50,581 nt of DNA from Candidatus Sumerlaeota bacterium (GCA_012513815.1 JAAZBM010000006.1:1-50581), one strand, 5' to 3'; numbered from the stretch's first letter, positions 1 through 12,225 are shown. Numbers and translations: made by a program. The notes: generated from the sequence alone by a model not told the origin.

Positions 1-1037
1 AGCTGTCGCGTTTGCGGCAACATCACGACCTGATAGCATGTTCGGATGAATTTGTCTGTCGCGAATGCAACGCCGTTGGCGGTCGCGATGTCGCCGGAGA
101 GTATGTCGCAAATGTCGCGCGCAGTGAATGGCGCGGCGCGGCGGGCGATTCGATTTTGTATGAAGGTCAGGCGCCGACATGAGGCGAAGGGGTTGCCGTC
201 ATCGGTTGCGGGCGTCGCGTTTTTGTTGCTTTGCTGAAAATGGTTTGTCGCGCTGATGTGGTTGCCTGTCGGGCGAACGATTTTCGCGCGGGTTGTCCCC
301 CACTCGAGCAGGCATGCGGATTGTTTGTCTGCGATGCCGATGATGTGCGGGAGAAATGGTTTGTGTTTGCGGAGAGCGGTTGTGGTCTCGTCGATTGTTT
401 TGCATGTTGCTGCCGCTTCCAACAGATAGCCGGGACTGAAGACGCGTTGGTCAAATTTCGGCGGCGTTTGCGAGATGAGTTCGGCGTTGAGTTCGATGCA
501 AATTCCGGCAGCGTTGATTGCTGTCGTCGCGTAGATGATGCCCGCCCACGCGATGGTGGCGACGGGTTGCGCTCCTTCGTCGATGGCGGGATGCCAAATC
601 GCGGTAATGAGTGGTGGTTGAATTTTTTCGACCGACATGTACCAGTCGTAGTTTCGGCCGAGGATTGTTTGATGATTCTCGGTCGCGTCACCCCAGAGCG
701 CGATGGTGGAGCATGCGGGGATATTCCCGGCGATGAATTCCATCGTCTCGAGGGCTGTCATTTCGGTTTCGGTCAGGTTCGCGCCGATGCCCACGCCACG
801 CACGATGTTGCGCATGATGATTGGCTCGCTCGCCCGTATCAGCGCTGCCGCCGCGATGATGTCCGGCGTCATGTACGGGATGAGTTTCGCGGCCAACGCG
901 TGCAATTCCGTTTTCAGGAGTTGGCCGTATTGTTGCCCCATCTGGTACCACGAACCATGCAAATCGAGGACGATGAATCCGTTGTTTGTCTTCAGTCGTC
1001 GTGCTTTGTTATCGCTTGTTTTGCGGATGGTTTTCAT
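1..1037 (-). CDS. C45-peptidase / acyl-CoA:6-APA acyltransferase-like Ntn-hydrolase family protein (partial, 3' end runs off window)
   Basis: Hand translation of the minus frame from ATG at 1037 gives an uninterrupted ORF to the window edge: MKTIRKTSDNKARRLKTNNGFIVLDLHGSWYQMGQQYG...PACSTIALWGD...RNYDWYM. It is absent from the ORF track only because it lacks an in-window stop. The Cys in PACST and the RNYDW motif are reminiscent of C45/choloylglycine-hydrolase-type Ntn hydrolases. Its start is 4 nt after the cobB stop in the same frame (operon). Confidence 0.5.
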   Translation of the reverse strand, partial: MKTIRKTSDNKARRLKTNNGFIVLDLHGSWYQMGQQYGQLLKTELHALAAKLIPYMTPDIIAAAALIRASEPIIMRNIVRGVGIGANLTETEMTALETMEFIAGNIPACSTIALWGDATENHQTILGRNYDWYMSVEKIQPPLITAIWHPAIDEGAQPVATIAWAGIIYATTAINAAGICIELNAELISQTPPKFDQRVFSPGYLLEAAATCKTIDETTTALRKHKPFLPHIIGIADKQSACLLEWGTTRAKIVRPTGNHISATNHFQQSNKNATPATDDGNPFASCRRLTFIQNRIARRAAPFTARDICDILSGDIATANGVAFATDKFIRTCYQVVMLPQTRQ

Positions 1038-1040
1038 GAT

Positions 1041-1748
1041 TTACTTTTTGGCGGAAAGAATTTCGTAGAGTTCTTTCATGCCGGTTGTGGCGGGTTTCGC
1101 AATCATTGTCATGCCGTCGCGGAGTTTGGGAAGCGAGTTCGCCTTGGGGTCTACGACATAGACCGGCGCATGCTGCGGGGCGTATTGGACAAGCCCGGCC
1201 GCGGGATAGACGACTAGCGATGTGCCGACGACGACGAATATGTCTGCCTGTGAGGCGATTGCGGCGGCTTTTGACATCAAAGGTACGGCTTCGTCGAAGA
1301 GGACGATGAACGGTCTGAGTTGTCCGCCGCGCGGGCATAAGTCGCCAACGTTTATCGGGTCGTATCCGATTTCCTTGACGTAGTCAGGGTCTTTCATCGA
1401 TGATGCTTTTGTGAGTTCTCCGTGGAGGTGGACGATGTGCGTCGACCCGGCGCGCTCGTGGAGGTTGTCGATGTTTTGTGTGAGGATGTATACGTTGAAA
1501 AGTTCCTCGAGTTTTGCGAGATATTTGTGCGCGTCGTTTGGTTCTACGGTCTTGAGTTCGGCGCGTCTGTCGTTGAAAAACTCGAGTACTTGTTTAGTGT
1601 TTCGGCGCATTGCTCTGCCTGTCGCAACGTCTTCGACGTTGTATCCGCACCACAATCCGTCGCTGCCTCTGAACGTTGGAATTCCGCTCTCTTTGCTGAT
1701 TCCTGCGCCGGTGAGTACCACCAGATTTTTCTTCTTGTTCTCAGTCAT
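1041..1748 (-). CDS. cobB: NAD-dependent protein deacylase, Sir2 family (CobB-like)
   Basis: GAGISKESGIPTFRG Rossmann motif and QNIDNLHERAG...HLHG catalytic His region, typical of sirtuins. The zinc-binding CxxC...CxxC module appears absent (only one Cys in that region). Confidence 0.85.
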   Translation of the reverse strand: MTENKKKNLVVLTGAGISKESGIPTFRGSDGLWCGYNVEDVATGRAMRRNTKQVLEFFNDRRAELKTVEPNDAHKYLAKLEELFNVYILTQNIDNLHERAGSTHIVHLHGELTKASSMKDPDYVKEIGYDPINVGDLCPRGGQLRPFIVLFDEAVPLMSKAAAIASQADIFVVVGTSLVVYPAAGLVQYAPQHAPVYVVDPKANSLPKLRDGMTMIAKPATTGMKELYEILSAKK

Positions 1749-1935
1749 TTTTCACTCTCCGCCTTTTTTCGTCCTTAATAGATAGATACCTCAGATGAGA
1801 TTTGGTGTGCGTAAAAAAGATTGTTTGGGGTGTTTTGAATTGCATTTATCATTCATTCGTATGTTAAGAATAGAATAGTAAAGACAAGTGGTCTTGACAT
1901 CAAAAATGAAGATAGAGATTTAAGGATTTCTCACT

Positions 1936-2553
1936 ATGACATTATCGTCTCGTTTAGTTGTTTGCAGTGTTGTGCTGATGAGTTCGGCATTAATGATGAG
2001 TGGCTGTGAGGGCCAGAAGAAAGCGGCACCCGCTGACCCGGGTCCCGGCACGGCGGGAATCGCATCGGCGCTTGAAGGTGTGTCGGATAAGGTTGACGCG
2101 ATTGCGTCTGTCCTGCCCGCTAAAGACCCGACGACCTCGGCTGTTGTGTCGACGCGGCTTCCTGATGGGACGCAGTATGTCGATGAAGTTGTCGGCACCG
2201 GCGCGGAGGCAACCGTTGGCTGCAAAGCCTCGGTGAATTACTCGGGCTATCTGCTTGATGGTAAGAAGTTTGATTCGAATCTCGACCATGGTTCGGCGCC
2301 GTTTGTTGTTGAGCCTCTTGGTTCGGCGCAAGTCATCACGGGTTGGAATACGGGTATCGTCGGCATGAAGGAAGGCGGCAAGCGCAAGCTTACGATTCCT
2401 TCGGATAGCGCTTATGGCGATGCCGGTAGTCCTCCTCGCATCCCGGGGAAGGCGACGTTGGTGTTTGATGTGGAACTTCTGAAGGTTGAGAAGTCTGACG
2501 CGAAACCCGCGCAACAAATGATGCCTCAGGGCATGCAGATGATTCCTCGTTAA
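1936..2553 (+). CDS. FKBP-type peptidyl-prolyl cis-trans isomerase, lipoprotein
   Basis: Signal peptide with lipobox (LMMSGC). C-terminal FKBP domain motifs (YSGYLLDGKKFDSN, GWNTGIVGMKEGGKRKLTIP, ATLVFDVELL). Confidence 0.85.
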   Translation: MTLSSRLVVCSVVLMSSALMMSGCEGQKKAAPADPGPGTAGIASALEGVSDKVDAIASVLPAKDPTTSAVVSTRLPDGTQYVDEVVGTGAEATVGCKASVNYSGYLLDGKKFDSNLDHGSAPFVVEPLGSAQVITGWNTGIVGMKEGGKRKLTIPSDSAYGDAGSPPRIPGKATLVFDVELLKVEKSDAKPAQQMMPQGMQMIPR

Positions 2554-2564
2554 TCGATTGAGGT

Positions 2565-4022
2565 TTGATGCTTAAGGTCGCTTTTCTGCATATTGTTCCG
2601 GCTGCGTTCGCCTATCAGTGGTCGCTCCCTCCGTTAGGTATTGGCTGGATTATCGCAGAGCTTCGGCGCACGCAAAGTCCTATCGATATCGCGTTTTTTC
2701 GGGACGCGGCTTCTGTCATCGAGTGGGGGCCAGACATTGTCGGGGTCGCATCGGATACGGGTACGATTACTTGGTCGATGGAGGCGGCGCGTGAGTTGCG
2801 TGCGGCGACGAATGCCTATTTGGTTCTCGGTGGACCGCATATAACGGCGCTGCCGCATCGTCTGCCCGCGGAGTTTGACCTCGGGATTTATGGTGAGGGC
2901 GAGCGCACTTGGTCGGAACTCGTCGGTCTGTTTCGCGCGATTGGCTCGCGGCGGCCGACGGCATCGGAGTTGAAGAAGATTCCGGGTCTCTGTTGGAATG
3001 AGAATGGCGTCGGCGTGCTCAGCCCGGCGCGGGAACTGATTGCGAATCTTGATGATTTGCCGTTGCCTGACCGTGATATTCTGGGCGATTACGCGGTGCC
3101 GCGTTGGTTGCGTGTGCATACGATTGTTTCCCGTGGTTGCCCGTATCATTGCGCGTTCTGTTCGTCGAGCGCTTTGTGGCCCGGGCTACGTCAGAATTCG
3201 GCGGCGCATGTCGCGGATGAAATCGAGTATTTGCGCAACAAGTATGACCCCATCGAGATTTATCTGTTTGATGATTTGCTGATTGCGAATCGGAATCGCT
3301 TCAAGGATATTTGTCGGCGGCTACGTGAGCGCGGATTGGATAAGGATATTGTTTTCCGTGGTCATGCGCGTGTCAATCTTCTTGACAGCGAGTATGTGGA
3401 TTTGTTGGGCGAACACAATTTCCGTTATCTGGATTTTGGTATCGAGTCCAACAGCGCTGCGGTTTTGGCGGCGCTGAATAAGACGGCTGTGACTCCGGAA
3501 ATCAATCAGCGCGCGATGGATTTGTTGAAGTCCTCGGGGCTGTCGGCGGGCGCGTCGCTGATTATCGGGTCGCCTGAAGAAACGAATGATGACATCCAAC
3601 AGACGTGGGATTTTGTCGTTCGTAACGCGGATGTGATTAAGCGTGTTTCTTGCGGGATGCTTGTTCCGCTGCCGGGGACGAAAATCTGGAAAGATGCGGA
3701 GGCACGTGGTTTGGTGAGTGAAACGATGGACTGGAGTTGCCTTAGCAATTACGCGACGCCTGAACAGTACGAAGAGCAGTACGCGAAGTTCCCGACGCCT
3801 GCGCGGAAAATCTCGCGCGAGGATTTGTTTGACTGGTTTATCAAGTTCAAGAATTACGCGGAGAGTATCGCGCCTGCAAGCGAGGCCGAGTATTGGGAGC
3901 AGAGCGCGTATCGGTTGCATGGCCGTTGCGAGCGCGCGCAGGTTGAACTGAAACGTCTGCATGGTTCGCGGTTGATGCGTCTCGCGATGTCTTTGCGTGA
4001 CAAACTGGGTAAGGGACATTGA
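2565..4022 (+). CDS. B12-binding domain radical SAM protein (class B rSAM)
   Basis: CxxxCxxC cluster in VSRGCPYHCAFCSS. The N-terminal region (LVLGGPHITALP) resembles a cobalamin-binding domain. Overlaps the next gene by 26 nt. Confidence 0.75.
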   Translation: MMLKVAFLHIVPAAFAYQWSLPPLGIGWIIAELRRTQSPIDIAFFRDAASVIEWGPDIVGVASDTGTITWSMEAARELRAATNAYLVLGGPHITALPHRLPAEFDLGIYGEGERTWSELVGLFRAIGSRRPTASELKKIPGLCWNENGVGVLSPARELIANLDDLPLPDRDILGDYAVPRWLRVHTIVSRGCPYHCAFCSSSALWPGLRQNSAAHVADEIEYLRNKYDPIEIYLFDDLLIANRNRFKDICRRLRERGLDKDIVFRGHARVNLLDSEYVDLLGEHNFRYLDFGIESNSAAVLAALNKTAVTPEINQRAMDLLKSSGLSAGASLIIGSPEETNDDIQQTWDFVVRNADVIKRVSCGMLVPLPGTKIWKDAEARGLVSETMDWSCLSNYATPEQYEEQYAKFPTPARKISREDLFDWFIKFKNYAESIAPASEAEYWEQSAYRLHGRCERAQVELKRLHGSRLMRLAMSLRDKLGKGH

Positions 4023-5097
4023 TGTGATGTTTGGTGGCGTCCGGGAGAAATTACGGCAGATGCGGAGGGCACGGCGCATCGCTCAACTTGAAAAGCCGCG
4101 CTGGCCGCAGGCGATTCAGATTGAGACGACGAATGTTTGCAATTTGCGTTGCGTGATGTGCCCGACGACCTATAACCCGACAGCGGGTATCGAAGCGAAG
4201 GAATCGATCATCAGCGCGGTGATGGCCGCGATGCCTCATGTCGCTGCGCTCCGGCCGTATCTGAATGGCGAGCCGCTGATGTATGCTCCGATTTTTGATT
4301 TGATGCGGCGGGCGCGGGCGCTGAATCCGTCAATCGATTTGGCGTTCAACACGAATGGAATGTTGATGGATAAGGACGCGCGCAAACAGATTTTGTCGTT
4401 GCCGATGAATCATGTTGTGGTGTCGATGGATGGCGCATGCGCCGAAACTTATAACGCGATTCGTGTGGGCGCGGATTTTGATGTTGTGGTGGACAACATT
4501 TCGCGATTGTCCGCGGAGCGTGGCCCTTATGCGGCGGGCAAGCTCCCGATGTTGTCGTTGCAGATGACGGTGCATAAGGATAATGTCGAGGAGATGCCGG
4601 AGTTGGTGCGTCTGGCGGCGCGTCTGGGATTGCAGGGCGTGATGTTCAATAATATTGAGCCTTACTGTGGCGCGCTTGCGGATAAGATTTGTTATGGGCC
4701 GAATCCCCGTGAGGAGTATGTCAAGCTGTTTGATGAGACTGCTCGCGAAGCACGTCGTCTGGGGTTGTTTTGCACGGCGGCGTTGTTGCGCGCTGATGGT
4801 GTAGCGCGTTATTGCCCGAGTTTGAGTGTGATGTATATCACGGCGGATGGGTCGTGTTATCCTTGCGCGTCGCTGATGTCTGGTGATAAGTTCTGGTATC
4901 TGGGCGAGGAGCGTCGGCATCATGGTCCTCTGTGTATGGGGACACTGCCGCAGCAGTCTATTTATGAGGTTTGGAATTCGCCGCAGTACCGCGCGTTTCG
5001 GCGGCAGTTGCGTGAGCATCGTCTCCATGCGGAATGCGAGCAATGTCTGATGGCGCAGAGTGTTGTTTGCAATACGCAGCCTTATCCACTGAATTGA
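3997..5097 (+). CDS. radical SAM / SPASM-domain protein
   Basis: IETTNVCNLRCVMCP (CxxxCxxC) near the N-terminus. C-terminal Cys-rich segment CYPCASL...ECEQCLMAQSVVC is consistent with auxiliary SPASM/twitch clusters. Confidence 0.75.
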   Translation: MTNWVRDIDVMFGGVREKLRQMRRARRIAQLEKPRWPQAIQIETTNVCNLRCVMCPTTYNPTAGIEAKESIISAVMAAMPHVAALRPYLNGEPLMYAPIFDLMRRARALNPSIDLAFNTNGMLMDKDARKQILSLPMNHVVVSMDGACAETYNAIRVGADFDVVVDNISRLSAERGPYAAGKLPMLSLQMTVHKDNVEEMPELVRLAARLGLQGVMFNNIEPYCGALADKICYGPNPREEYVKLFDETAREARRLGLFCTAALLRADGVARYCPSLSVMYITADGSCYPCASLMSGDKFWYLGEERRHHGPLCMGTLPQQSIYEVWNSPQYRAFRRQLREHRLHAECEQCLMAQSVVCNTQPYPLN

Positions 5098-5193
5098 TTT
5101 TTTTGGGTGTTGCGCTCATTTGCTTCCTCTTGTCTCTTTTCACAAATTGCGAGCACATTATTTTTTGAACGACACTATATAATATTATAAATT

Positions 5194-6771
5194 ATGCATA
5201 AAAGGTGTTATTTAGAAATGTTATCTCGCGTCTGTCTCATTCGTTATCTTTGCAGTGTGTTATGTGTTGCTTCTTTGTCTGTTTGTGGCGCTTCATTTGG
5301 CGAGTCCGATGTTACGTCGCAGAGTGTTACCATATCGGCAGAATTTGATGTCGCGCAGTCGCTGAATGAGCAAATTGATAAGCGTGTCGGCAGCGCGGAT
5401 TTGGAATCGAAAGCCCTGTGCGCCGTTTATATTTTTGATGGCGCGACGGGCAAGGTGTTGGTCAATAAGCATGGCGAGGAAGCGTTTGCTCCGGCGTCGT
5501 GCAACAAGTTGCTGACGACAGCGGCGTCGCTCTCGCTTTTTGGGCCGGACAAGCGCATCGAGACGGATATTTATCGCACGGGTGTTATTGACGCGAACGG
5601 AACGCTGAAAGGCAACCTTATTGTTGTTGGTGGCGGTGACCCTTCGATTTGTGGGCGCTATGAGACGGATAAGAAAGATGTCACGGCCGAGTTGCGTCGG
5701 TGGGTGGATGCGATGACCTCGGCGGGAATCAAAAAAGTTCACGGCGATTTGGTTGCGGACATTCGCGTTTTTGATCAGGAGTATTTCCATAAGAACTGGT
5801 ACCTCAACGAACGTGGCGAATATTATGAGGCCGAAATTTGGGGACTGCAGTTCAATGAGGGTTGCGTCGATATGGAGTTCAGCTCGAAGGATTTGCTGCC
5901 GGGCGATACCGCCAAGATGACGCTGATTCCGCCGACGACTTACGCGACTGTCAGCAATAATATCAAGGTGCTGGCTCGTGGGCGGGCGGGTTCCACGGAG
6001 TTTCGGCGTGAGGATTTGTCGAATGATATCGTGGCGACAGGAACGTTGGCGTTTGACTCGACAAAGATTGAGAGCGCGACGATTTGCAATGGTCCGTTGT
6101 GGGCGTTGCATACATTGCGTGATGTGATGACAAGCGCCGGTATCACGGTCAGTGGGAAGTTGCGCATCGCGGATTCGCTGGAGGACGCGCCTGCGGTGGC
6201 TGGTGGCATTCTGGTGCATCGCCGTCTGTCGCCGCCGATGAGCGAGCTGATTAATACGGTCAATCGCGTCAGTCAGAATTTTTATGCGGACAGCCTTTGC
6301 AAACTTCTCGGGAATCGTTTCCGTGGCAGTGGTTCATGGGCTGCCGGTTGCGCTGTGATTCGCGAGTGGCTGCGGAATCAGCCAGTGTGGAGCGAAGGTC
6401 ATATGATGGATGACGGTTCGGGTTTGAGTGATGAGAACCGTGTCGCGCCGCGCACGTTGGCGGAGTTGCAGCGCTTTATGAATGAAGGACCTTACTCGAG
6501 TCAATGGCGTGATAGCCTCCCACAGGGCGGCGTTCGTGGCTCGCTGAAGGCGCGCTTTGCCGAGACTGATGCGACTGCCGAACAGAAGGCGCGCATCTTT
6601 GGTAAGACAGGTTATATCGATGGCGTGCGCTCTCTGTGCGGTTACATTTTGCGCAAAGACGGGACGCCGGTCTACTACATGATTAATGTTGTCAATTCGT
6701 ACCGGTCCGCAAAACAGCAGCTTGACCTGATTGATGATATCGTCGTGATGACGCTGAAGGCGTATGAGTAG
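5194..6771 (+). CDS. dacB: D-alanyl-D-alanine carboxypeptidase/endopeptidase, PBP4 family (peptidase S13)
   Basis: Signal peptide. SxxK active site (ASCNKLL). PBP4-like length (525 aa) and motifs (SLPQGG, KTGYIDGVRSLCGY). Confidence 0.8.
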   Translation: MHKRCYLEMLSRVCLIRYLCSVLCVASLSVCGASFGESDVTSQSVTISAEFDVAQSLNEQIDKRVGSADLESKALCAVYIFDGATGKVLVNKHGEEAFAPASCNKLLTTAASLSLFGPDKRIETDIYRTGVIDANGTLKGNLIVVGGGDPSICGRYETDKKDVTAELRRWVDAMTSAGIKKVHGDLVADIRVFDQEYFHKNWYLNERGEYYEAEIWGLQFNEGCVDMEFSSKDLLPGDTAKMTLIPPTTYATVSNNIKVLARGRAGSTEFRREDLSNDIVATGTLAFDSTKIESATICNGPLWALHTLRDVMTSAGITVSGKLRIADSLEDAPAVAGGILVHRRLSPPMSELINTVNRVSQNFYADSLCKLLGNRFRGSGSWAAGCAVIREWLRNQPVWSEGHMMDDGSGLSDENRVAPRTLAELQRFMNEGPYSSQWRDSLPQGGVRGSLKARFAETDATAEQKARIFGKTGYIDGVRSLCGYILRKDGTPVYYMINVVNSYRSAKQQLDLIDDIVVMTLKAYE

Positions 6772-6784
6772 CCTGAAGAGTTGA

Positions 6785-8215
6785 GTGAGCATGGCATCAA
6801 ACACGAGTACACATAAACCGATTGGTTGGTGTTCCATGTTGCTGACGATGGGATGTGTGTTCGCGTTGGTGTGCGCCGCTGAGATTGCCGCAAGACAATG
6901 TAGTGACGCGTTTGGCACTTTCGGCGGGTGGGATAATCGGACGCTTTATCATCGCGTGATGAATGCCGATGAATCGGTGCGTGAGAATGGGCACTGGAAT
7001 ATGCTGCTGTATGGTTCTTCGGTCGGGTTGCCGTTGCAGCCGTCGCGCTGGATGGAAGCTACCGGGAACGATGCCGTGATGTATAACGGATGCGTCGGCG
7101 GGCAACGTCCGGATATGTTGCAGGTGCTGTATGAGGGTGTGTTTTACCCGATGGGGCGGCCGGACAAGTTGGTGTATATCATCACGCCGACGGATGTCAA
7201 CGCCGGAACGGACGCACGGGCGGGCGAATCGGTTTTGTGGCAGGCGCCACGGGTGCGGTTGGTGCGCAAGGATTTGAATTTCGCGGAACATTGTGTGGCG
7301 TGGCTTGATGTTCACAGCGCGCTGTTTGGCGCTCGCCGTCATTTACGGACACGGCTTGAGCGTGGCGTGTTGCCCGAGGAACCGGAGATTTTGTTTTTGC
7401 CGGATGGGTCGCGGCTCTCGCCGTTTTCGGTGACGACGCCGGAGATCGCGAAGAAGCATAATCCGTTGGAAAACTTCTCGTTTAATCCGCGGCAGTCCGA
7501 CGCGATTGTTTCGCTTGTTGAGTTTTGCAAGGCGAACGGAACGGATGTACGGCTGGTCAGTCAGCCTCTGCCGGAATGCGCCTATGATGATTGCCTGAGC
7601 ACGACGGAGTCTGAACGTGCCCGCAAGCTGTATGAGGCAGGGCTGCGCGATATCGAGCAGCGTTGCGGTTTGCAGGTGACGCGGCTGAATGATGGTCAAA
7701 CGACTTTCGCGGATGAGCTTGCGTATGACGCGTTGCACGCGAATCGGCGCGGGGCGGAGGTGCTCATGGCGGAGTATTGGTCGCAGGTCATCGGGCCGCT
7801 GTTCGCGAATATCGCGCGGACGCAGAATTTGCCTGTGGAACAGGAGTTCCGTTTCTCTGATTTGCAAACGAGCCGGACGGCGCTGGTGGCGTCGGGGCTT
7901 CCTTGGGCGACCGAGGGTGTTGTTTGCGCTGATGGAGTTTCAAGCGCGAGTATTCCGCTGCCGGGGGTTTACGCTCCGGGGAAATGGCGGGCAGAGTTTT
8001 CGGTTCAGTATCCGTCGCAGGGTGAGGCTGTGAACGCGACAGTGAGCGATGGCAAGCAGTCCGAGCCTGTTCGGCGTATGTCGGATTTATACGCCCGCGA
8101 GACCGGTTACGCGTTCGCGGAAATCACACTTTCTTCGAGTTCGTCCCTTTGTGTGAACCTCGGCGAACAGACGCGCCTCAACGCGCTATTTTTGCGTCCC
8201 AAGATATTGCCATGA
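6785..8215 (+). CDS. hypothetical membrane-anchored protein, possible SGNH/GDSL-like hydrolase or acyltransferase
   Basis: N-terminal TM helix. GSS motif (LLYGSSVG) near the N-terminus and D-x-x-H (YDALHANRRGAEVL) near the C-terminal third fit SGNH spacing. GTG (6785) or ATG (6791) start. Its stop overlaps the queG start (ATGA). Confidence 0.4.
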   Translation: MSMASNTSTHKPIGWCSMLLTMGCVFALVCAAEIAARQCSDAFGTFGGWDNRTLYHRVMNADESVRENGHWNMLLYGSSVGLPLQPSRWMEATGNDAVMYNGCVGGQRPDMLQVLYEGVFYPMGRPDKLVYIITPTDVNAGTDARAGESVLWQAPRVRLVRKDLNFAEHCVAWLDVHSALFGARRHLRTRLERGVLPEEPEILFLPDGSRLSPFSVTTPEIAKKHNPLENFSFNPRQSDAIVSLVEFCKANGTDVRLVSQPLPECAYDDCLSTTESERARKLYEAGLRDIEQRCGLQVTRLNDGQTTFADELAYDALHANRRGAEVLMAEYWSQVIGPLFANIARTQNLPVEQEFRFSDLQTSRTALVASGLPWATEGVVCADGVSSASIPLPGVYAPGKWRAEFSVQYPSQGEAVNATVSDGKQSEPVRRMSDLYARETGYAFAEITLSSSSSLCVNLGEQTRLNALFLRPKILP

Positions 8216-9198
8216 ACCGTATCGAAGAAGCAGACCTTGGCGATTTGATTCGCACTTCCGGCTTCTATAAGTTTGGTGCCACCCGTCTGCCGTTGGACGA
8301 GGCGTATTTGTCATATTTTTCGAGTTGGATTTCGCAAGGAAATCATGCGGATATGCAGTGGCTTGAGAAGAATTACCGGGCACGTCGTAGTGGGACGGCG
8401 GTTTTGCCCAACGCCCGCAGTGTTCTGGTTTTGCTGGCGCCGAGTTCGCCTCGCAATCCGGCAGAGTGCCCGCCAAAGCCCAGTGGGCCGGGCGAAATGC
8501 GAATCGCTGATTTCGCGTTGGGGGTTGATTATCATAATGTTTTGCGGGCAGCAGCGGAGCCAATCGCGCAACGTCTCCGCGAGGTTTTCCCGCTGAGTTT
8601 GTGGCGTATATGTATCGACAGCGCGCCGCTGTTTGAACGCGCCGCCGCCTTTGCCAGTGGTCTGGGTTTCATCGGGCGCAACAGCATGCTGATTGACCCG
8701 GATTCGCCGTATGGTTCGCGATTTTATATCGTTTGCATTATTGGCACGGCGGACCTGAAGATTGACCGCTATATGGAAGCGGAGTGGATTGTTGACAAAC
8801 AGAAGAGGCATTGCGGCGACTGCCGTTTGTGCATCGATAGTTGTCCCGGCGGGGCGTTGTCTTTTGGACAGATGTTCGACGCGTGCCGATGCGTTTCTTA
8901 CATGACCATCGAAAAGCGCGGGGAGATGACTCCCGAGGAGCATGAGCGCGCCGGTGACCGATTGTTCGGGTGCGATACCTGTCAGGATGTTTGCCCGTAT
9001 AACGCCATTGCGCCGATTACTCCTTTCCTCGATTTGCGCGAGAATGTGAGGACCAAAGCGTATGTGCCCGCAAATGCTTTTGACGCGTCGAAGATGACGC
9101 GTGGTGAGTTCCGCCGTCAGTTTTCAGACTCGTCTTTGTGGCGGGCCGGCATCACAAAACTGCGTAAGCGCACGGAATTTTTCCGCAAAAAGAAATAA
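8212..9198 (+). CDS. queG: tRNA epoxyqueuosine(34) reductase QueG
   Basis: Two 4Fe-4S ferredoxin motifs (CGDCRLCIDSCP, CDTCQDVCPYN) and QueG-like N-terminal region. Start taken at ATG 8212 (ATGA overlap with the upstream stop) rather than ORF-track 8149. Confidence 0.85.
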   Translation: MNRIEEADLGDLIRTSGFYKFGATRLPLDEAYLSYFSSWISQGNHADMQWLEKNYRARRSGTAVLPNARSVLVLLAPSSPRNPAECPPKPSGPGEMRIADFALGVDYHNVLRAAAEPIAQRLREVFPLSLWRICIDSAPLFERAAAFASGLGFIGRNSMLIDPDSPYGSRFYIVCIIGTADLKIDRYMEAEWIVDKQKRHCGDCRLCIDSCPGGALSFGQMFDACRCVSYMTIEKRGEMTPEEHERAGDRLFGCDTCQDVCPYNAIAPITPFLDLRENVRTKAYVPANAFDASKMTRGEFRRQFSDSSLWRAGITKLRKRTEFFRKKK

Positions 9199-9231
9199 AA
9201 AACCTCAATCAGACCTTTCGGTCATAGTACC

Positions 9232-9498
9232 GTGCAAACAAAACTCACGGAGACACTTTACTTTATGCTGATACGCCAATATAGAGAGGATATATGTGGT
9301 ATGAATCAGTGTGCGAAGTGTGGTCGCGATAGTGGCAATGAGTTTTTGTGTCCCGAGTGTAACCAACTTATTTTCTCGGAGTCGGATGTCGCGGATTGCA
9401 TTCAGATAGACGCGCCGCCGATAGCTGAGGAACCGCAGGTGGCAGCGACGACGAAGGCGGACACGCGGAATGGCGCAAAGGCGCCTATCATGAAATAG
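9232..9498 (+). CDS. small hypothetical zinc-ribbon protein
   Basis: CAKCG...CPEC four-Cys motif. Intergenic position between queG and pdxJ. Start ambiguous (ATG 9232, 9262 or 9301). Confidence 0.3.
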   Translation: MQTKLTETLYFMLIRQYREDICGMNQCAKCGRDSGNEFLCPECNQLIFSESDVADCIQIDAPPIAEEPQVAATTKADTRNGAKAPIMK

Positions 9499-9562
9499 TG
9501 TTTGGCGGCGGCGCTGCATGAGAATCTCGATTTATGATGTAGTATAATGAGAGGTTATTATC

Positions 9563-10333
9563 ATGGCAAAGCTTTGTGTAAATATTGATCATATCGCGAC
9601 GTTACGACAGGCGCGGCGTATCGATGAACCGGATCCGGTCGCGGGTGCCGTTCTGGCGGAACTGGGCGGCGCGGCGAGTATTACGTGCCATTTGCGCGAG
9701 GATCGTCGGCATATGCAGGACCATGATGTCGCGCGGCTGTTGAAGACGGTGAAGAACGGTCTGAATCTTGAGATGGCGTGTACAAACGAGATGCTTGATA
9801 TCGCGGCGGGGTTTAAGTCGTTGCGCATGGTGATGTTTGTCCCGGAGAAGCGCGAGGAGGTCACGACTGAGGGCGGACTTGATGTGGCCGGGAAGTTTGA
9901 TTCTGTGGCGGCGGGCGTCGCTCGGATGGCCGCGGCCGGCCATAAGGTGAGTTTGTTTATTGACGCGCGGCGGGCGCAGATTGACGCTGCCCGGGAGGCG
10001 GGCGCTCAGGTGGTGGAGTTGCATACGGGGCCTTACGCGAATGCGGTTGGCGATGGTGTGTGCGATGAGCTTGCGATGCTGATGGATGTTGCCGATTACG
10101 CGCAGCATTTGGGGCTGCAGGTGAACGCGGGTCATGGGTTGAATTTGCGCAATGTCGCTCCGGTCGCGGCAATCGGCGGGCTGTGCGAATTGCACATCGG
10201 ACATTCGATTATTTCGCATGCGGTGATGGTCGGGCTTGAACGCGCTGTGCGTGAGATGCGCGCTGAGATTGGCCGTGGCGAGATGCTTGCTGCCCGTGGC
10301 CTGAGTCCTCTCGATATTCTTGCGCGTTACTGA
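9563..10333 (+). CDS. pdxJ: pyridoxine 5'-phosphate synthase
   Basis: N-terminal LCVNIDHIATLRQAR and GxHxREDRRH signature of PdxJ. 256 aa. Confidence 0.9.
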   Translation: MAKLCVNIDHIATLRQARRIDEPDPVAGAVLAELGGAASITCHLREDRRHMQDHDVARLLKTVKNGLNLEMACTNEMLDIAAGFKSLRMVMFVPEKREEVTTEGGLDVAGKFDSVAAGVARMAAAGHKVSLFIDARRAQIDAAREAGAQVVELHTGPYANAVGDGVCDELAMLMDVADYAQHLGLQVNAGHGLNLRNVAPVAAIGGLCELHIGHSIISHAVMVGLERAVREMRAEIGRGEMLAARGLSPLDILARY

Positions 10334-10347
10334 GTTGTTTGTAGGGG

Positions 10348-11154
10348 TTGCGTGTGGTGACGAAAAGCGTTGATGTTTCGCGGCCGGAACGTGCTAAGCG
10401 AGCTATTCGATTGCGGCGTGTCACGCGGTTTGTGTTGATTGCCGTCGTCGTGATTGTGCTGACGTGCGGTCTCGCGCTGTTTGGCTTGCTGTGGATTAAT
10501 TACAGCATCATCCGGATGACGGACAGCTTGATGGTGACGGATGTCGCCGAGATTCGCCCGACGACGCTCGCGGTGGTGCCGGGGGCGAGGATTTATAAGG
10601 GCGGGCGGCTGTCGGCATATCTGCAGGACCGTGTGGATGCGGCGATTGAGCTGTATAACGCGGGGAAGGTCAAGAAGATTCTGATGAGTGGCGATAACAG
10701 TGACCGCTATTATGATGAGTCGTCCGCGATGCGTAATTACGCGATTGAGCATGGAGTTCCGGAGGATGATGTGTTGCGCGATTTCGCGGGGCTGCGCACG
10801 CTGGATACCGTTTGGCGGACGCGTGATATCTGGGGGCAGTCAGACTTTGTGATTGTCACGCAGCGTTTTCATTTGCCGCGTGCGTTGTATCTTGCGCGGG
10901 CGCTGGATATCGATGTTCAGGGTTATGTTTGCGACCGGCGCGATTATATGCAATCGGTGGCGGCGCGGCTGGCGACGCGGGAATTTTTCGCGCGTATCGC
11001 GGCGTGGTGTGATATCAATATTCTGCGGACGCGGCCGCGGCATCTGGGCGAGCGGGAATCGCTGTCGGGTGTGGAGCAGGATTTGAAGGTGAAGGATCAG
11101 CGGAAAGAGATTTGGCAGCGCGAGAAGTTTCTGCGCAATAATGGCAAGATTTAG
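10348..11154 (+). CDS. sanA: SanA/YdcF (DUF218) family envelope protein
   Basis: N-terminal TM helix then DUF218-like core (LAVVPGARIYKGGRLSAYLQDRVDAAIELYNAGKVKKILMSGDN). TTG/GTG start. Confidence 0.7.
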   Translation: MRVVTKSVDVSRPERAKRAIRLRRVTRFVLIAVVVIVLTCGLALFGLLWINYSIIRMTDSLMVTDVAEIRPTTLAVVPGARIYKGGRLSAYLQDRVDAAIELYNAGKVKKILMSGDNSDRYYDESSAMRNYAIEHGVPEDDVLRDFAGLRTLDTVWRTRDIWGQSDFVIVTQRFHLPRALYLARALDIDVQGYVCDRRDYMQSVAARLATREFFARIAAWCDINILRTRPRHLGERESLSGVEQDLKVKDQRKEIWQREKFLRNNGKI

Positions 11155-11343
11155 TTTTCCTGTACAGCCCCGGGATAACTACTTCTCTTGTTTCTTGGTC
11201 GAGGTCGCTGATAATCTCAATACTTTTGTTTTTCTATGACAGTGTTGAAGATATTAATGGCTTTTTGTAAGCTTTTGATATCAATTGATGATTTTCATAG
11301 ACATTATTTCATTTATTACTAAGGAAAAGTTTACGCAATCTTT

Positions 11344-12120
11344 TTATTTATCGTCTTCGGGTCTGCTGAGGATAATGGGTCCTTCGTCGGTGATTGCGAC
11401 AGTGTGTTCCATGTGCGCTGAGAGACTTCCGTCGGCGGTGATGGTGGTCCATCCGTCGTCGAGGATTTTGATTCTCCATGAACCGAGGTTGATCATCGGC
11501 TCGATTGCGATGACCATTCCGGCCTTGAGCATCATTCCTGTGCCGGGCGTTCCGTAGTTCGGGAGTTGTGGCGGCTCGTGCATGTTCTTGCCGATTCCGT
11601 GGCCGCACATGTCGCGGACGACGCCGTATCCGTGTGCTTCGGCGAGTTGTTGGATGGCGGCACCGACGTCGCCCAAACGAGCGCCGACGACCATGTGGTC
11701 GATGCCTCTGTAGAGGCAGTCGGTGGTCACTTTGATGAGGTCTTTAGCTTTGTCGGTGATGTTGCCAACGCCGACGGTTTTGGCGTGGTCGCTTTGCCAT
11801 CCGTCGAGGATGAGGCCGCTATCGATGGAAAGGATTTCGCCGTCTTGGAGTTCGCGATCGCAGGGGATTCCGTGCACCACTTCGTCGTCAACGGATGTGC
11901 ATAATGTCGCGGGGAAACCGTGATAGTTGAGGAATGACGGTTTTGCTCCGTTCGCGATGATCATGTCGTAGGCGATTTTGTCCAGTTGTTTGGTCGTTAC
12001 GCCGGGTTTGACAGCCTTGATGACTGTTTCCATAACCTTGCTGAGAAGAATGCCTGCTTTGCGCATTTTAGCGATTTCTTCGGGCGTTTTGATTGTGACT
12101 CTGTTCATGTTGTGGTGCAT
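11344..12120 (-). CDS. map: type I methionine aminopeptidase
   Basis: Full-length MetAP motifs (HGIP, metal-binding D/D/H/E/E residues). 258 aa. Confidence 0.9.
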   Translation of the reverse strand: MHHNMNRVTIKTPEEIAKMRKAGILLSKVMETVIKAVKPGVTTKQLDKIAYDMIIANGAKPSFLNYHGFPATLCTSVDDEVVHGIPCDRELQDGEILSIDSGLILDGWQSDHAKTVGVGNITDKAKDLIKVTTDCLYRGIDHMVVGARLGDVGAAIQQLAEAHGYGVVRDMCGHGIGKNMHEPPQLPNYGTPGTGMMLKAGMVIAIEPMINLGSWRIKILDDGWTTITADGSLSAHMEHTVAITDEGPIILSRPEDDK

Positions 12121-12159
12121 AATATGTGTAATCTCTTGTGTTGTGTTTCTTTGTTTTTC

Positions 12160-12205
12160 ATAAATAAAAAGAAGGGTCTACACTCTTTTGGCGAAGTGCA
12201 GACCC
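12160..12205 (-). terminator. rho-independent terminator (hairpin flanked by A/T runs) between secY and map
   Basis: GGGTCTACAC-12nt-GTGCAGACCC stem (one mismatch). Flanked by an A-run on plus (T-run on minus) and a T-rich tract on plus, so possibly bidirectional. Confidence 0.5.
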
Positions 12206-12225
12206 TTTGTTGAAATCGTTTTGGT

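What the first reader, a model, noticed from the sequence alone, without database searches (positions are those of the whole stretch)
1936..5097. Overlapping B12-binding rSAM and SPASM rSAM pair with no obvious substrate peptide, next to an FKBP lipoprotein and cell-wall enzymes
A class-B (cobalamin-type) radical SAM gene overlaps by 26 nt with a SPASM-domain radical SAM gene. SPASM enzymes usually act on peptides or proteins (RiPPs, anSME-type maturases). No small precursor ORF is visible in the 1749-1935 or 5098-5193 spacers. The operon begins with a periplasmic FKBP lipoprotein and is followed by PBP4 (dacB) and an SGNH-like hydrolase. This suggests an envelope-directed modification pathway (protein, lipid or glycan) rather than a classical RiPP cluster. 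The substrate is unknown.
Basis: partly seen in the sequence, partly recalled or inferred. Interest (0 to 1): 0.6.

Follow-up and report, generated by a model that had tools for sequence, protein, structure and literature searches.

The report
Uncharacterised radical SAM pair in Sumerlaeota
Two tightly coupled radical-SAM enzyme genes of unknown function (one cobalamin-type, one SPASM/Twitch-type) sit behind an FKBP lipoprotein gene in a Candidatus Sumerlaeota genome. Their relatives lie in sugar and polysaccharide gene clusters, so they most likely tailor a cell-envelope glycan rather than a peptide, which makes this a plausible but fairly ordinary orphan-enzyme finding.

Summary
The genes are real. 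FKBP lipoprotein (1936-2553), a B12-binding radical SAM (2568-4022) and a SPASM/Twitch radical SAM (4027-5097) form a compact unit on a Candidatus Sumerlaeota MAG contig. The 26-nt overlap comes from taking the longest ORF; homologues support ATG 4027, which leaves a 4-nt gap. Neither enzyme reaches any curated NCBIfam cut-off.

No precursor ORF, RRE domain, sulfatase or riboswitch was found. The B12 enzyme belongs to an orthologue group whose named members are all Sumerlaeota. It is usually solitary, in varying housekeeping contexts. A second radical SAM follows it only in one clade (window, a 66% relative, a 50% relative). PBP4 and the SGNH-like gene are not conserved neighbours.

The closest B12 relatives outside the group lie in Wzx/Wzy or GT-C glycan loci. 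SPASM relatives are fused to sulfotransferase or GT4 domains, or sit beside Wzt. Eighteen distant, directly adjacent B12/SPASM pairs are flanked by PMT_2, cytidylyltransferase, NeuB, Wzx and glycosyltransferase genes.

Best reading (about 0.4): radical tailoring of an envelope glycoconjugate, not a RiPP. This is a new member of known kinds, of modest interest.

The parts
1041..1748 (-). Sir2/CobB-type NAD-dependent protein deacylase, transcribed divergently. It is context only and probably not part of the system.
   Evidence: Pfam SIR2 E 5.7e-37. The same divergent position is kept in the 66% relative L001.
1749..1935 (.). AT-rich divergent intergenic region (presumed promoter region) with no credible or conserved small ORF.
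   Evidence: GC 0.43 against about 0.55 around it. ORFs of 20 aa or more are listed. Nothing is conserved with L001's spacer except the Sir2 N-terminus. No Rfam or riboswitch hit.
1936..2553 (+). FKBP-type peptidyl-prolyl isomerase with a lipoprotein-like signal peptide (Cys24). It is the first gene of the compact unit.
   Evidence: FKBP_C 93 bits. It is below every NCBIfam cut-off. Sequence. It is 59% identical and syntenic in L001.
2568..4022 (+). Class-B architecture radical SAM enzyme (484 aa). It has an N-terminal B12-binding Rossmann domain, an rSAM core with C191-x3-C195-x2-C198, and a family-specific C-terminal long helix (417-465) followed by an invariant G466-S467-R468 helix.
   Evidence: Pfam. 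It is below all NCBIfam cut-offs. Orthologue alignment. AF2 model pLDDT 88.4. Foldseek hits to MgmA, TsrM, AprD4, CysS, TokK and OxsB. GAGG lies 6-9 nt upstream of ATG 2568.
4027..5097 (+). Radical SAM enzyme with a SPASM/Twitch-type C-terminal Fe-S domain (356 aa). It has C38-x3-C42-x2-C45. C-terminal Cys 263, 280, 337, 340 and 348 are conserved in its closest relatives. There is no RRE domain.
   Evidence: Pfam, NCBIfam, alignments. AF2 model pLDDT 85.9. Foldseek hits to BlsE, SuiB, DesII, CteB, SkfB and anSME. Start at 4027 supported.
5098..5193 (.). AT-rich spacer with a weak terminator-like hairpin (5104-5118). It is the probable end of the FKBP-rSAM-rSAM transcription unit.
   Evidence: Sequence, hairpin. 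Synteny with L001 ends here.
5194..6771 (+). PBP4 (DacB, S13 D-Ala-D-Ala carboxypeptidase/endopeptidase). It is a neighbour and not a conserved part of the unit.
   Evidence: Peptidase_S13 E 3e-76. TIGR00666 is above its cut-off. It is absent within 8 kb in L001.
6785..8215 (+). Near-orphan membrane-anchored protein with SGNH-like motifs (GSSVG at 77-81, D315..H318). It is a neighbour. A distant relative sits next to the rSAM genes in one other lineage.
   Evidence: No family hit. Only two clusters (its own, 99% identical, and one 51% relative) turned up in the word-indexed search of the 5.8-billion-protein collection. It is 24% identical (E 5e-19) to the protein at the head of the L090 rSAM cluster. 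Motifs. Weak GDSL and DUF1574 hits.

Best explanation
FKBP-lipoprotein, B12-rSAM and SPASM/Twitch-rSAM form one compact, probably co-translated unit in the core genome of a Candidatus Sumerlaeota bacterium.

The two cytoplasmic radical SAM enzymes most likely tailor a non-peptide envelope glycoconjugate. The substrate would be a nucleotide-activated or polyprenyl-linked sugar, or a nascent polysaccharide.

The B12 enzyme is the ancestral component, found across the Sumerlaeota members sampled. By analogy with class-B enzymes such as GenK, TokK and CysS, it would use 5'-deoxyadenosyl radical chemistry plus methylcobalamin to methylate an unactivated carbon. A cobalamin-assisted rearrangement is also possible.

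The SPASM/Twitch enzyme is an addition specific to one clade. It would perform a second 5'-dA-radical step of the BtrN, DesII or BlsE kind: oxidation, epimerisation, deamination or decarboxylation of a sugar carbon. Its auxiliary cluster would act as the electron sink.

Shown: gene structure, domain architecture, Fe-S motifs, fold class, phyletic pattern, and the contexts of relatives. Inferred: substrate class, the chemistry of both steps, and whether the two enzymes share a substrate.
For: (1) Compact unit. The gaps are 14 nt and 4 nt with RBS-like motifs. The TGATG junction and the same Sir2|FKBP-B12-SPASM order occur in the 66%/72% relative. A rSAM with the same two top NCBIfam families (TIGR04311, TIGR04317) follows the 50% orthologue. 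These three lineages form one clade.

(2) Not a RiPP or anSME system. There is no conserved small ORF. The N-terminus ahead of the core is only about 28 residues, so there is no RRE. No peptide-maturase family cut-off is reached.

(3) Closest B12 relatives outside the Sumerlaeota group.
- L011 (Omnitrophota, 39%) lies in the order Wzy_C - methyltransferase - B12 - Wzx - B12 fusion - kinase - GT4.
- L010 (37%) is followed by a convergent PMT_2 GT-C.
- The same convergent GT-C arrangement occurs at Sumerlaeota orthologue L003, and PMT_2 and YfhO lie 1-4 kb upstream in L092.
- L003's GT-C is homologous (E 1e-25) to the gene directly after B12-SPASM pairs in L154, L166 and L171.

(4) SPASM relatives.
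- The nearest relative outside the clade (P0194, 42%) sits between a Wzt polysaccharide-export ATPase and a LuxE-type ligase, with DegT and GT87 nearby.
- Other members are fused to an Stf0 sulfotransferase or a GT4 domain.
- The best PDB sequence hit is the sugar-nucleoside decarboxylase BlsE. BlsE and DesII are among the top fold hits.

(5) Distant pairs. Eighteen directly adjacent same-strand B12/SPASM pairs were found. Of their 70 neighbours, 9 match PMT_2, 8 match class-I methyltransferases, 4 match CTP_transf_3, 3 match GT2 and 2 match GT1. Individual loci also carry NeuB, a Kdo-transferase-like GT and Wzx.
Against: - The informative contexts belong to relatives only 25-42% identical, and radical SAM substrate specificity is not conserved at that distance.
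- The window has no glycosyltransferase, nucleotide-sugar or Wzx/Wzt gene next to the pair. The nearest GT4 is about 24 kb away.
- The B12 orthologue is conserved across the sampled Sumerlaeota members. It is solitary next to ftsH, efp, carD, tdk and accD. That pattern is more typical of a housekeeping enzyme than of variable glycan tailoring.
- Fold hits include peptide-modifying SPASM enzymes at the same score level as the sugar enzymes.
- AprD4 shows that a B12-like domain does not prove cobalamin use.
- The neighbour counts are not corrected for related loci (for example L045/L051 and L154/L166/L171), and no background frequency was measured.
Confidence: 0.4

Rival explanations
1. The two genes are unrelated neighbours. 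The B12 enzyme performs a Sumerlaeota housekeeping modification of a cofactor, RNA, ribosomal or translation factor, or some other core molecule. The SPASM enzyme is an independent, recently inserted gene with a different substrate. The tight spacing reflects only operon packing.
For: - The B12 orthologue is solitary in eight of the eleven places surveyed, in changing core-gene contexts such as ftsH (twice), efp/mutY, carD, tdk and accD.
- The SPASM gene has only one relative above 50% identity and one at 42% among 1.84 billion representatives.
- The 42% relative has no B12 gene within 8 kb upstream.
- The rSAM downstream of the 50% B12 orthologue is only 27% identical to the window's, so it may not be orthologous.
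- MiaB and RimO are significant fold neighbours of the B12 enzyme.
Against: - The order and translational-coupling spacing are kept at 66-72% identity.
- A same-subfamily rSAM is again immediately downstream in the third member of the clade.
- B12/SPASM adjacency recurs in 12 of 80 and 15 of 80 seeded loci from unrelated organisms.
Confidence: 0.2
2. The pair modifies a membrane lipid. The B12 enzyme would methylate or cyclise an acyl, isoprenoid or polyprenyl chain, as HpnP, HpnR, HpnJ, GrsA/B or the ladderane-type B12 rSAMs do. The SPASM enzyme would add a second radical step.
For: - NCBIfam hits include HpnJ (92 bits), the lipid-biosynthesis B12 rSAM TIGR04072 (83 bits) and HpnR (69 bits).
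- The basic C-terminal helix after the invariant GSR motif could be a membrane anchor (inference).
- accD is divergent from the orthologue in L002, and accB/accC lie 2.3 kb away in L177.
- Conservation across the sampled Sumerlaeota members suits a core membrane component.
- GT-C partners use polyprenyl-phosphate carriers, so a carrier lipid could be the substrate (inference).
- GDGT-MAS appears among the fold hits of the SPASM model.
Against: - All lipid-family scores are 6-10 times below their cut-offs, and lower than the ApyD and BchE hits.
- No hopanoid, isoprenoid or ether-lipid genes lie near any orthologue surveyed.
- The fusions and operon partners of relatives are sugar enzymes, not lipid enzymes.
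Confidence: 0.15
3. The pair is a protein or peptide maturase system. It would modify a protein encoded elsewhere, or the co-transcribed FKBP lipoprotein before export. This would resemble anSME acting on sulfatases, MgmA or Mmp10 acting on MCR, or a RiPP whose precursor is distal.
For: - The best NCBIfam hit of the B12 enzyme is the RiPP enzyme ApyD (131 bits). The best hits of the SPASM enzyme are putative metalloenzyme maturases (TIGR04317, TIGR04311, about 147 bits).
- The top fold hit of the B12 model is the protein methylase MgmA.
- SuiB, CteB, SkfB and anSME are among the fold hits of the SPASM model.
- The FKBP gene is the only conserved co-directional partner.
Against: - All of these scores are far below the cut-offs (380-750).
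- There is no RRE or PqqD-like domain, no precursor ORF, no peptidase or export genes, no sulfatase and no AOR-type enzyme nearby.
- FKBP is not linked to the B12 orthologue outside two species.
- No RiPP-type gene appears among the listed Pfam families of the neighbours of distant pairs.
Confidence: 0.12

Closest known systems
Class B (cobalamin-dependent) radical SAM enzymes with solved structures: MgmA (9ccb), TsrM (6wte), CysS (9n1b-d), TokK (7kdx), OxsB (5ul2-4)
   Same: They share the Rossmann B12-binding domain plus the partial TIM-barrel rSAM core. Foldseek gives E 4e-22 to 1e-16 and TM 0.57-0.63 over 400-480 columns. A profile search also hits OxsB, TokK, MgmA and CysS.
   Different: Identity is only 17-21%. 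No curated family cut-off is reached. The window's enzyme has a family-specific C-terminal 49-residue helix and an invariant GSR motif. Substrate and cobalamin use are untested.
AprD4 (6fd2), a radical SAM diol dehydratase acting on an aminoglycoside sugar
   Same: It has the best TM-score to the B12 model (0.65-0.67 by query length, 0.69-0.70 by target length) and a similar length. It acts on a sugar.
   Different: Identity is 18%. NCBIfam AprD4 scores 47.6 bits against a cut-off of 500. From the literature (my knowledge), AprD4 does not use cobalamin.
Sugar-acting SPASM/Twitch radical SAM enzymes: BlsE (7vob), DesII (8hzv), BtrN (4m7t)
   Same: BlsE is the best PDB sequence hit and the best fold hit (E 2.3e-14). 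DesII and BtrN are also listed. As in BtrN, four family-conserved Cys in the C-terminal domain would suffice for one auxiliary cluster. There is no RRE.
   Different: Identity is 14-18%. NCBIfam BlsE scores 35 bits against a cut-off of 400. A fifth conserved Cys (C348), and a sixth (C303) shared only with the 72% relative P0122, have no counterpart.
TIGR04317 (tungsten-cofactor oxidoreductase rSAM maturase) and TIGR04311 (rSAM_Geo_metal)
   Same: These are the best-scoring curated families. TIGR04317 aligns nearly full length (148 bits, profile 4-318 of 349). TIGR04311 scores 146 bits, with its best stretch covering the N-terminal core (profile 1-223 of 423). They are also the top two families for the rSAM downstream of the 50% B12 orthologue.
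   Different: The scores are about 37-39% of the cut-offs (380 and 400). No AOR-type or selenoprotein partner is in the window. Those families are themselves named from context only (my knowledge).
RiPP radical SAM maturases (ApyD; SuiB, CteB, SkfB, PqqE) and anSME
   Same: They belong to the same superfamilies. ApyD is the top NCBIfam hit of the B12 enzyme (131 bits). SuiB, CteB, SkfB, anSME and PqqE are fold neighbours of the SPASM enzyme.
   Different: No precursor, RRE, sulfatase or PqqD-like partner is present. All scores are far below the cut-offs.
Uncharacterised B12-rSAM/SPASM-rSAM tandem pairs in glycan loci of Omnitrophota, Patescibacteria, DPANN, Bathyarchaeota and others
   Same: They have the same two-gene architecture, often with overlapping stop and start codons. 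Both proteins hit the profiles built from the window's families.
   Different: Identity is 21-29%. Those pairs have glycosyltransferase, cytidylyltransferase, NeuB or Wzx genes next to them. The window's pair does not.

Membership tests
Radical SAM superfamily (both genes) | CxxxCxxC motif for the SAM-binding [4Fe-4S] cluster within a PF04055 core | tested here: met
   B12 enzyme: C191/C195/C198, PF04055 58 bits. SPASM enzyme: C38/C42/C45, PF04055 51 bits. Both exceed the cut-off of 29.5. The Cys are invariant in the alignments.
Class B (cobalamin-dependent) radical SAM | N-terminal B12-binding Rossmann domain fused to the rSAM core | tested here: met
   PF02310 35.5 bits, above the cut-off of 32.1. 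The AF2 model superposes on TsrM, TokK, OxsB, CysS and MgmA across both domains.
Class B (cobalamin-dependent) radical SAM | Actual binding and use of cobalamin (methyl transfer giving SAH plus 5'-dA) | not testable with these tools
   This needs biochemistry. AprD4, an equally good fold match, shows that the domain alone is not proof (literature knowledge).
SPASM-domain radical SAM | PF13186 C-terminal domain | tested here: met
   PF13186 48.8 bits against a cut-off of 21.5, residues 278-350.
SPASM-domain radical SAM | Canonical seven-Cys motif CX9-15GX4C ... CX2CX5CX3C ... C that ligates two auxiliary clusters | tested here: inconclusive
   The window protein has Cys 263, 277, 280, 303, 337, 340 and 348, but the spacing is CX2CX7C rather than CX2CX5CX3C. 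Only 263, 280, 337, 340 and 348 are kept in its four closest relatives. Only 280, 337 and 340 are invariant in the wider family, where 263 is mostly kept. This fits a Twitch-like single auxiliary cluster at least as well.
RiPP biosynthetic cluster | Adjacent precursor-peptide gene | tested here: not met
   No credible ORF of 20 aa or more lies in either spacer. No small ORF or DNA stretch is conserved with the 66% relative.
RiPP biosynthetic cluster | RRE/PqqD-like leader-recognition domain in or next to the maturase | tested here: not met
   The rSAM core starts at about residue 29, after one helix. No PqqD or RRE Pfam hit appears on any gene of the unit.
anSME (anaerobic sulfatase-maturating enzyme) | Membership of the anSME family, with a cognate sulfatase gene | tested here: not met
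   anSME is not among the 25 NCBIfam families shown for this protein (47 matched in all). No sulfatase is among the window genes scanned. There is only a fold-level resemblance, at 17-18% identity.
Hopanoid methylases and HpnJ (HpnP/HpnR/HpnJ) | Score above the equivalog cut-off, and hpn gene context | tested here: not met
   HpnJ scores 92 bits against 578, and HpnR 69 bits against 650. No hpn or shc genes lie near any orthologue surveyed.
TIGR04317 / TIGR04311 putative metalloenzyme maturases | Score above the curated cut-off, and an adjacent target metalloenzyme | tested here: not met
   Scores are 148 bits against 380 and 146 bits against 400. No AOR-family or selenoprotein gene is nearby.
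SGNH/GDSL hydrolase (gene 6785-8215) | Block I Ser (GDS-like) and block V DxxH, with a profile match | tested here: inconclusive
   GSSVG (77-81) and D315-x2-H318 are invariant in three relatives. The profile hits are only E 0.07 for GDSL_2 and E 7e-5 for DUF1574 in the distant relative.

The most novel reading that the evidence does not exclude
The Sumerlaeota B12-rSAM, together with its clade-specific SPASM/Twitch partner, belongs to a widespread module that has not been described. The module consists of a B12-rSAM, a SPASM-rSAM and often a PMT_2-type GT-C. It would install radical modifications, such as C-methylation of unactivated sugar carbons, on envelope glycans or their polyprenyl carriers. 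It occurs in Sumerlaeota, Omnitrophota, Patescibacteria, DPANN and Bathyarchaeota. In Sumerlaeota the B12 step would have become a core feature of the phylum's envelope.
Probability: 0.25. Interest if true: 0.6.

Novelty: new member of a known kind. Interest (0 to 1): 0.3.

Why it matters
If the glycan reading is right, these genes mark a radical-chemistry route for tailoring envelope polysaccharides in a barely studied, uncultured phylum. They would tie into a recurring B12-rSAM/SPASM/GT-C gene module seen across many candidate phyla, which no biochemical study I could find has addressed.

In practical terms, the B12 orthologue group is a clean, conserved target of about 480 aa for functional characterisation. 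As it stands, though, this is one of many thousands of unassigned radical SAM enzymes. Its sequence shows nothing mechanistically unusual.

Tried and rejected
The cause was generic patterns (RGCP[YF]xCxFC and CNLRC[TV]MC). Only 24-39% relatives came back, with no further Sumerlaeota loci. I reused these loci as a survey of distant pairs.

(2) I looked for a cobalamin riboswitch or any structured RNA. There were no Rfam hits at gathering thresholds in the whole window. The only hit near the operon was a chance-level snoRNA match.

(3) I searched for a precursor peptide in both spacers and by cross-species comparison. Nothing was found.

(4) Fold searches of both AF2 models against the PDB placed them only at superfamily level. 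Sugar-, peptide- and protein-acting enzymes scored alike.

(5) Four targeted literature searches found nothing on such pairs or on Sumerlaeota radical SAM enzymes. Two broader searches returned only a gut-microbiota metalloenzyme review and a gentamicin review.

(6) I looked for recurrent unknown neighbours of the Sumerlaeota orthologues by phmmer. None was found beyond the SGNH-like protein in L090.

(7) I considered FKBP as the substrate or a BamJ-type protein. BamJ scores 61 bits against a cut-off of 100, and linkage is limited to two species, so I did not pursue it.

(8) The N-terminal alpha/beta-hydrolase 'fusion' in P0010 covers only the last part of the hydrolase fold. It may be a gene-call artefact, so I gave it no weight.

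Full report
WHERE THIS IS

The window is a 50,581-bp contig of a Candidatus Sumerlaeota MAG. The two radical SAM proteins are NLD61042.1 and NLD61043.1, and the latter's record sits on a contig of exactly this length. The same organism turns up widely: the SPASM protein is indexed in 51 blocks of the assembly collection, and 23 contigs carrying it were read, the longest 684 kb. The surrounding window is core genome: SecY, EF-Tu, EF-G, SecDF, Map, PdxJ and QueG.

OBSERVATION

- 1936-2553 encodes an FKBP_C protein (E 1.1e-26). It has a signal peptide ending in a lipobox-like MSG-C24.
- 2568-4022 encodes a 484-aa protein with B12-binding and Radical_SAM domains. Both are above Pfam's cut-offs. 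The CxxxCxxC motif is at C191/195/198.
- 4027-5097 encodes a 356-aa Radical_SAM plus SPASM protein, with C38/42/45.
- 5194-6771 is PBP4.
- 6785-8215 has no family hit. It keeps a GSSVG block and D315..H318, and has weak GDSL and DUF1574 similarity, so 'SGNH-like' is plausible but unproven.

The 26-nt overlap is probably not real. It requires GTG 3997 as the start.

- Other gene calls start at ATG 4027 (P0121).
- The 72% homologue starts MFGK, against the window's MFGG at 4027. Its junction with the upstream gene is TGATG.
- AAGGGA lies 11 nt upstream of 4027.

The gaps are therefore 14 nt between FKBP and the B12 gene (with GAGG upstream) and 4 nt between the B12 and SPASM genes. That makes a compact, probably translationally coupled unit.

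After the SPASM stop codon comes a 96-nt AT-rich spacer with a weak terminator-like hairpin. Synteny with the nearest relative ends there. PBP4 and the SGNH-like gene are therefore probably a separate unit.

CLASSIFICATION

Neither enzyme reaches any NCBIfam cut-off.

- B12 enzyme: best hits are ApyD (131 bits, cut-off 750), BchE (108, cut-off 481) and HpnJ (92, cut-off 578).
- SPASM enzyme: best hits are TIGR04317 (148, cut-off 380) and TIGR04311 (146, cut-off 400).

The AF2 models are confident (pLDDT 88.4 and 85.9).

- The B12 model matches MgmA, TsrM, AprD4, CysS, TokK and OxsB at 17-21% identity. It is a bona fide class-B architecture. It adds a 49-residue C-terminal helix and a short basic helix after an invariant G466-S467-R468.
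- The SPASM model matches BlsE, SuiB, DesII, CteB, SkfB, anSME and PqqE about equally. BlsE is also the best PDB sequence hit.

The SPASM protein has no RRE; its core begins at about residue 29. Its C-terminal domain has seven Cys in the window protein. Only five (263, 280, 337, 340, 348) are kept in its closest relatives, and three or four in the wider family. The spacing is CX2CX7C. This fits a Twitch-like single auxiliary cluster at least as well as a canonical two-cluster SPASM.

NO PEPTIDE

No credible small ORF lies in either spacer. Nothing is conserved between the spacers of the window and of the 66% relative except the N-terminus of Sir2 itself. There is no riboswitch or other Rfam hit.

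PHYLETIC PATTERN

The B12 enzyme has a sharply bounded orthologue group. It contains 21 clusters scoring 362 bits or more, with 95-100% coverage that includes the C-terminal helices. The next hit drops to 266 bits. All members that carry a name are Sumerlaeota.

I looked at the context in eleven places: ten loci fetched, plus one contig seen as a gene table only.

- Window and L001 (66%): Sir2(-) | FKBP - B12 - SPASM.
- L090/L091 (50%): a distant relative of the SGNH-like protein (24% identity, E 5e-19), then a second unrelated B12-rSAM, then the orthologue, then a rSAM. That rSAM is 27% identical to the window's, and its top two NCBIfam families are the same two.
- Everywhere else the gene is solitary:
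  - accD | B12 | ftsH
  - B12 | ftsH
  - B12 | convergent GT-C
  - PMT_2, YfhO, carD | B12
  - B12 | tdk
  - efp | B12 | mutY
  - a histidine-kinase gene | B12 | an unknown gene
  - UDP-glucose dehydrogenase ... B12 ... accBC

In a neighbour-joining tree, the three lineages with a downstream rSAM form one clade.

The SPASM gene is rare. An exhaustive HMMER search of 1.84 billion representatives lists only the query's own cluster (which also holds the 72% relative), a 42% relative (P0194), a 43% fragment, and then about 33% relatives.

So the B12 enzyme is the ancestral component and works without the SPASM enzyme in most of the phylum. The SPASM partner is an addition specific to one clade.

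WHAT THE RELATIVES DO

This is the only evidence that bears on the substrate.

(a) The closest B12 relatives outside the group.
- L011 (Omnitrophota, 39%) lies in the order Wzy_C - methyltransferase - B12 - Wzx - B12 fusion - kinase - GT4.
- L010 (37%) has a convergent PMT_2 GT-C abutting it.
- Sumerlaeota locus L003 has the same convergent GT-C arrangement.
- That GT-C is homologous (E 1e-25) to the gene directly following B12-SPASM pairs in three metagenomic loci.

(b) SPASM relatives.
- P0194 (42%) sits between a Wzt polysaccharide-export ATPase and a LuxE-type ligase. DegT, GT87 and NlpC/P60 are upstream.
- Other members are fused to an Stf0 sulfotransferase or to a GT4 domain.

(c) A survey of distant loci.
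- Of 80 SPASM-seeded metagenome loci, 12 carry a B12-rSAM. Of 80 B12-seeded genome loci, 15 carry a SPASM-type rSAM.
- I found 18 directly adjacent same-strand pairs.
- Among their 70 neighbours, 9 match PMT_2, 8 match class-I methyltransferases, 4 match CTP_transf_3, 3 match GT2 and 2 match GT1.
- Individual loci read SPASM - B12 - cytidylyltransferase x2 - B12 - Kdo-transferase-like; SPASM - B12 - GT2/cytidylyltransferase ... NeuB; SPASM - B12 ... Wzx; and B12 - SPASM - PMT_2.
- These proteins are only 21-29% identical to the window's. The neighbour counts are not corrected for related loci or for background frequency.

INTERPRETATION

The best-supported reading (about 0.4) is that the pair tailors a non-peptide envelope glycoconjugate. 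The B12 enzyme would carry out a cobalamin-dependent radical step, most likely C-methylation by analogy with GenK, TokK and CysS (my knowledge of those families). The SPASM/Twitch enzyme would carry out a BtrN-, DesII- or BlsE-like oxidation, epimerisation or decarboxylation. The gene structure, domains, motifs, folds, phyletic pattern and contexts are shown. The substrate, the chemistry and the coupling of the two steps are inferred.

Several points weigh against this reading.

- No glycan gene flanks the pair in the window; the nearest GT4 is about 24 kb away.
- Solitary conservation across the sampled phylum members looks more like housekeeping than like variable glycan tailoring.
- Function transfer at 25-42% identity is unreliable for radical SAM enzymes.

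The rivals are:

- unrelated neighbours, with a housekeeping B12 enzyme (0.2);
- lipid modification (0.15), based on weak HpnJ, ladderane and HpnR similarity, acc genes near two orthologues, and the basic C-terminal helix;
- protein or RiPP maturation, including FKBP as substrate (0.12).

VERDICT

These are new, unassigned members of well-known enzyme superfamilies with no unusual sequence feature, so I score interest at about 0.3. The more interesting by-product is the recurring B12-rSAM/SPASM-rSAM (plus or minus GT-C) module in glycan loci of many candidate phyla. I could find no description of it in the searchable literature.

Noticed in passing
window 6785-8215: This 476-aa membrane-anchored protein is nearly an orphan. 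The word-indexed search of the 5.8-billion-protein collection returned only its own cluster and one 51% relative. It keeps SGNH-like GSSVG and DxxH motifs. A 24%-identical, 695-aa relative heads the rSAM cluster of another Sumerlaeota lineage (L090).
   Followed up: partly
L090 1-5659 and L091 1-2967: A related Sumerlaeota lineage carries a larger cluster. The order is: SGNH-like protein, a second unrelated B12-rSAM (517 aa, 22% identity), the B12 orthologue, then a TIGR04311/04317-like rSAM. The contig ends cut the cluster off.
   Followed up: partly
L160, L175, L120, L154, L166, L171 (metagenome loci): B12-rSAM/SPASM-rSAM tandem pairs are embedded in sugar pathways. The neighbours include two cytidylyltransferases plus a Kdo-transferase-like GT, a GT2-cytidylyltransferase fusion plus NeuB, Wzx, and PMT_2 GT-C. 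I found no description of such a module.
   Followed up: partly
L015 4700-17900; L043 2000-19300; L028: These loci hold extreme local concentrations of B12-rSAM paralogues. An unclassified bacterial MAG has seven within about 13 kb, a Bathyarchaeota MAG has about six, and a Woesearchaeota MAG has several B12 plus four SPASM-type rSAMs.
   Followed up: no
L096 6713-10171: The nearest SPASM relative outside the clade (42%) is in an apparent operon, Wzt (ABC_tran + Wzt_C) - rSAM/SPASM - LuxE-type acyl-protein synthetase. The last two genes overlap by 4 nt. This is an unusual partner set for a polysaccharide exporter.
   Followed up: no
P0009 and P0018 (Sumerlaeota B12 orthologues), C-terminal ~90 residues; P0010 N-terminus: Two orthologues carry long low-complexity Gly/Asn/Ala-rich C-terminal tails after the conserved GSR helix. 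One has an N-terminal partial alpha/beta-hydrolase segment that may be a gene-call fusion.
   Followed up: no
window 1-50581 (strongest at 1-12500): There is strong strand asymmetry. GC skew is about +0.16 to +0.21 over the first 12.5 kb and never negative across the whole window. T exceeds A almost throughout. This holds regardless of coding strand and generates many long spurious antisense ORFs.
   Followed up: no
window 3997 / 4027 / 4060: Public annotations of this one SPASM gene use three different starts: 366 aa (GTG 3997), 356 aa (ATG 4027) and 345 aa in the GenBank record of this contig. Homologue N-termini favour 4027.
   Followed up: yes
L001 10680-13158: In the 66% relative, the genes after the SPASM gene are an AAA_21 ATPase and a 430-aa protein without a family, instead of PBP4 and the SGNH-like gene. 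This may be an inserted two-gene cassette.
   Followed up: no
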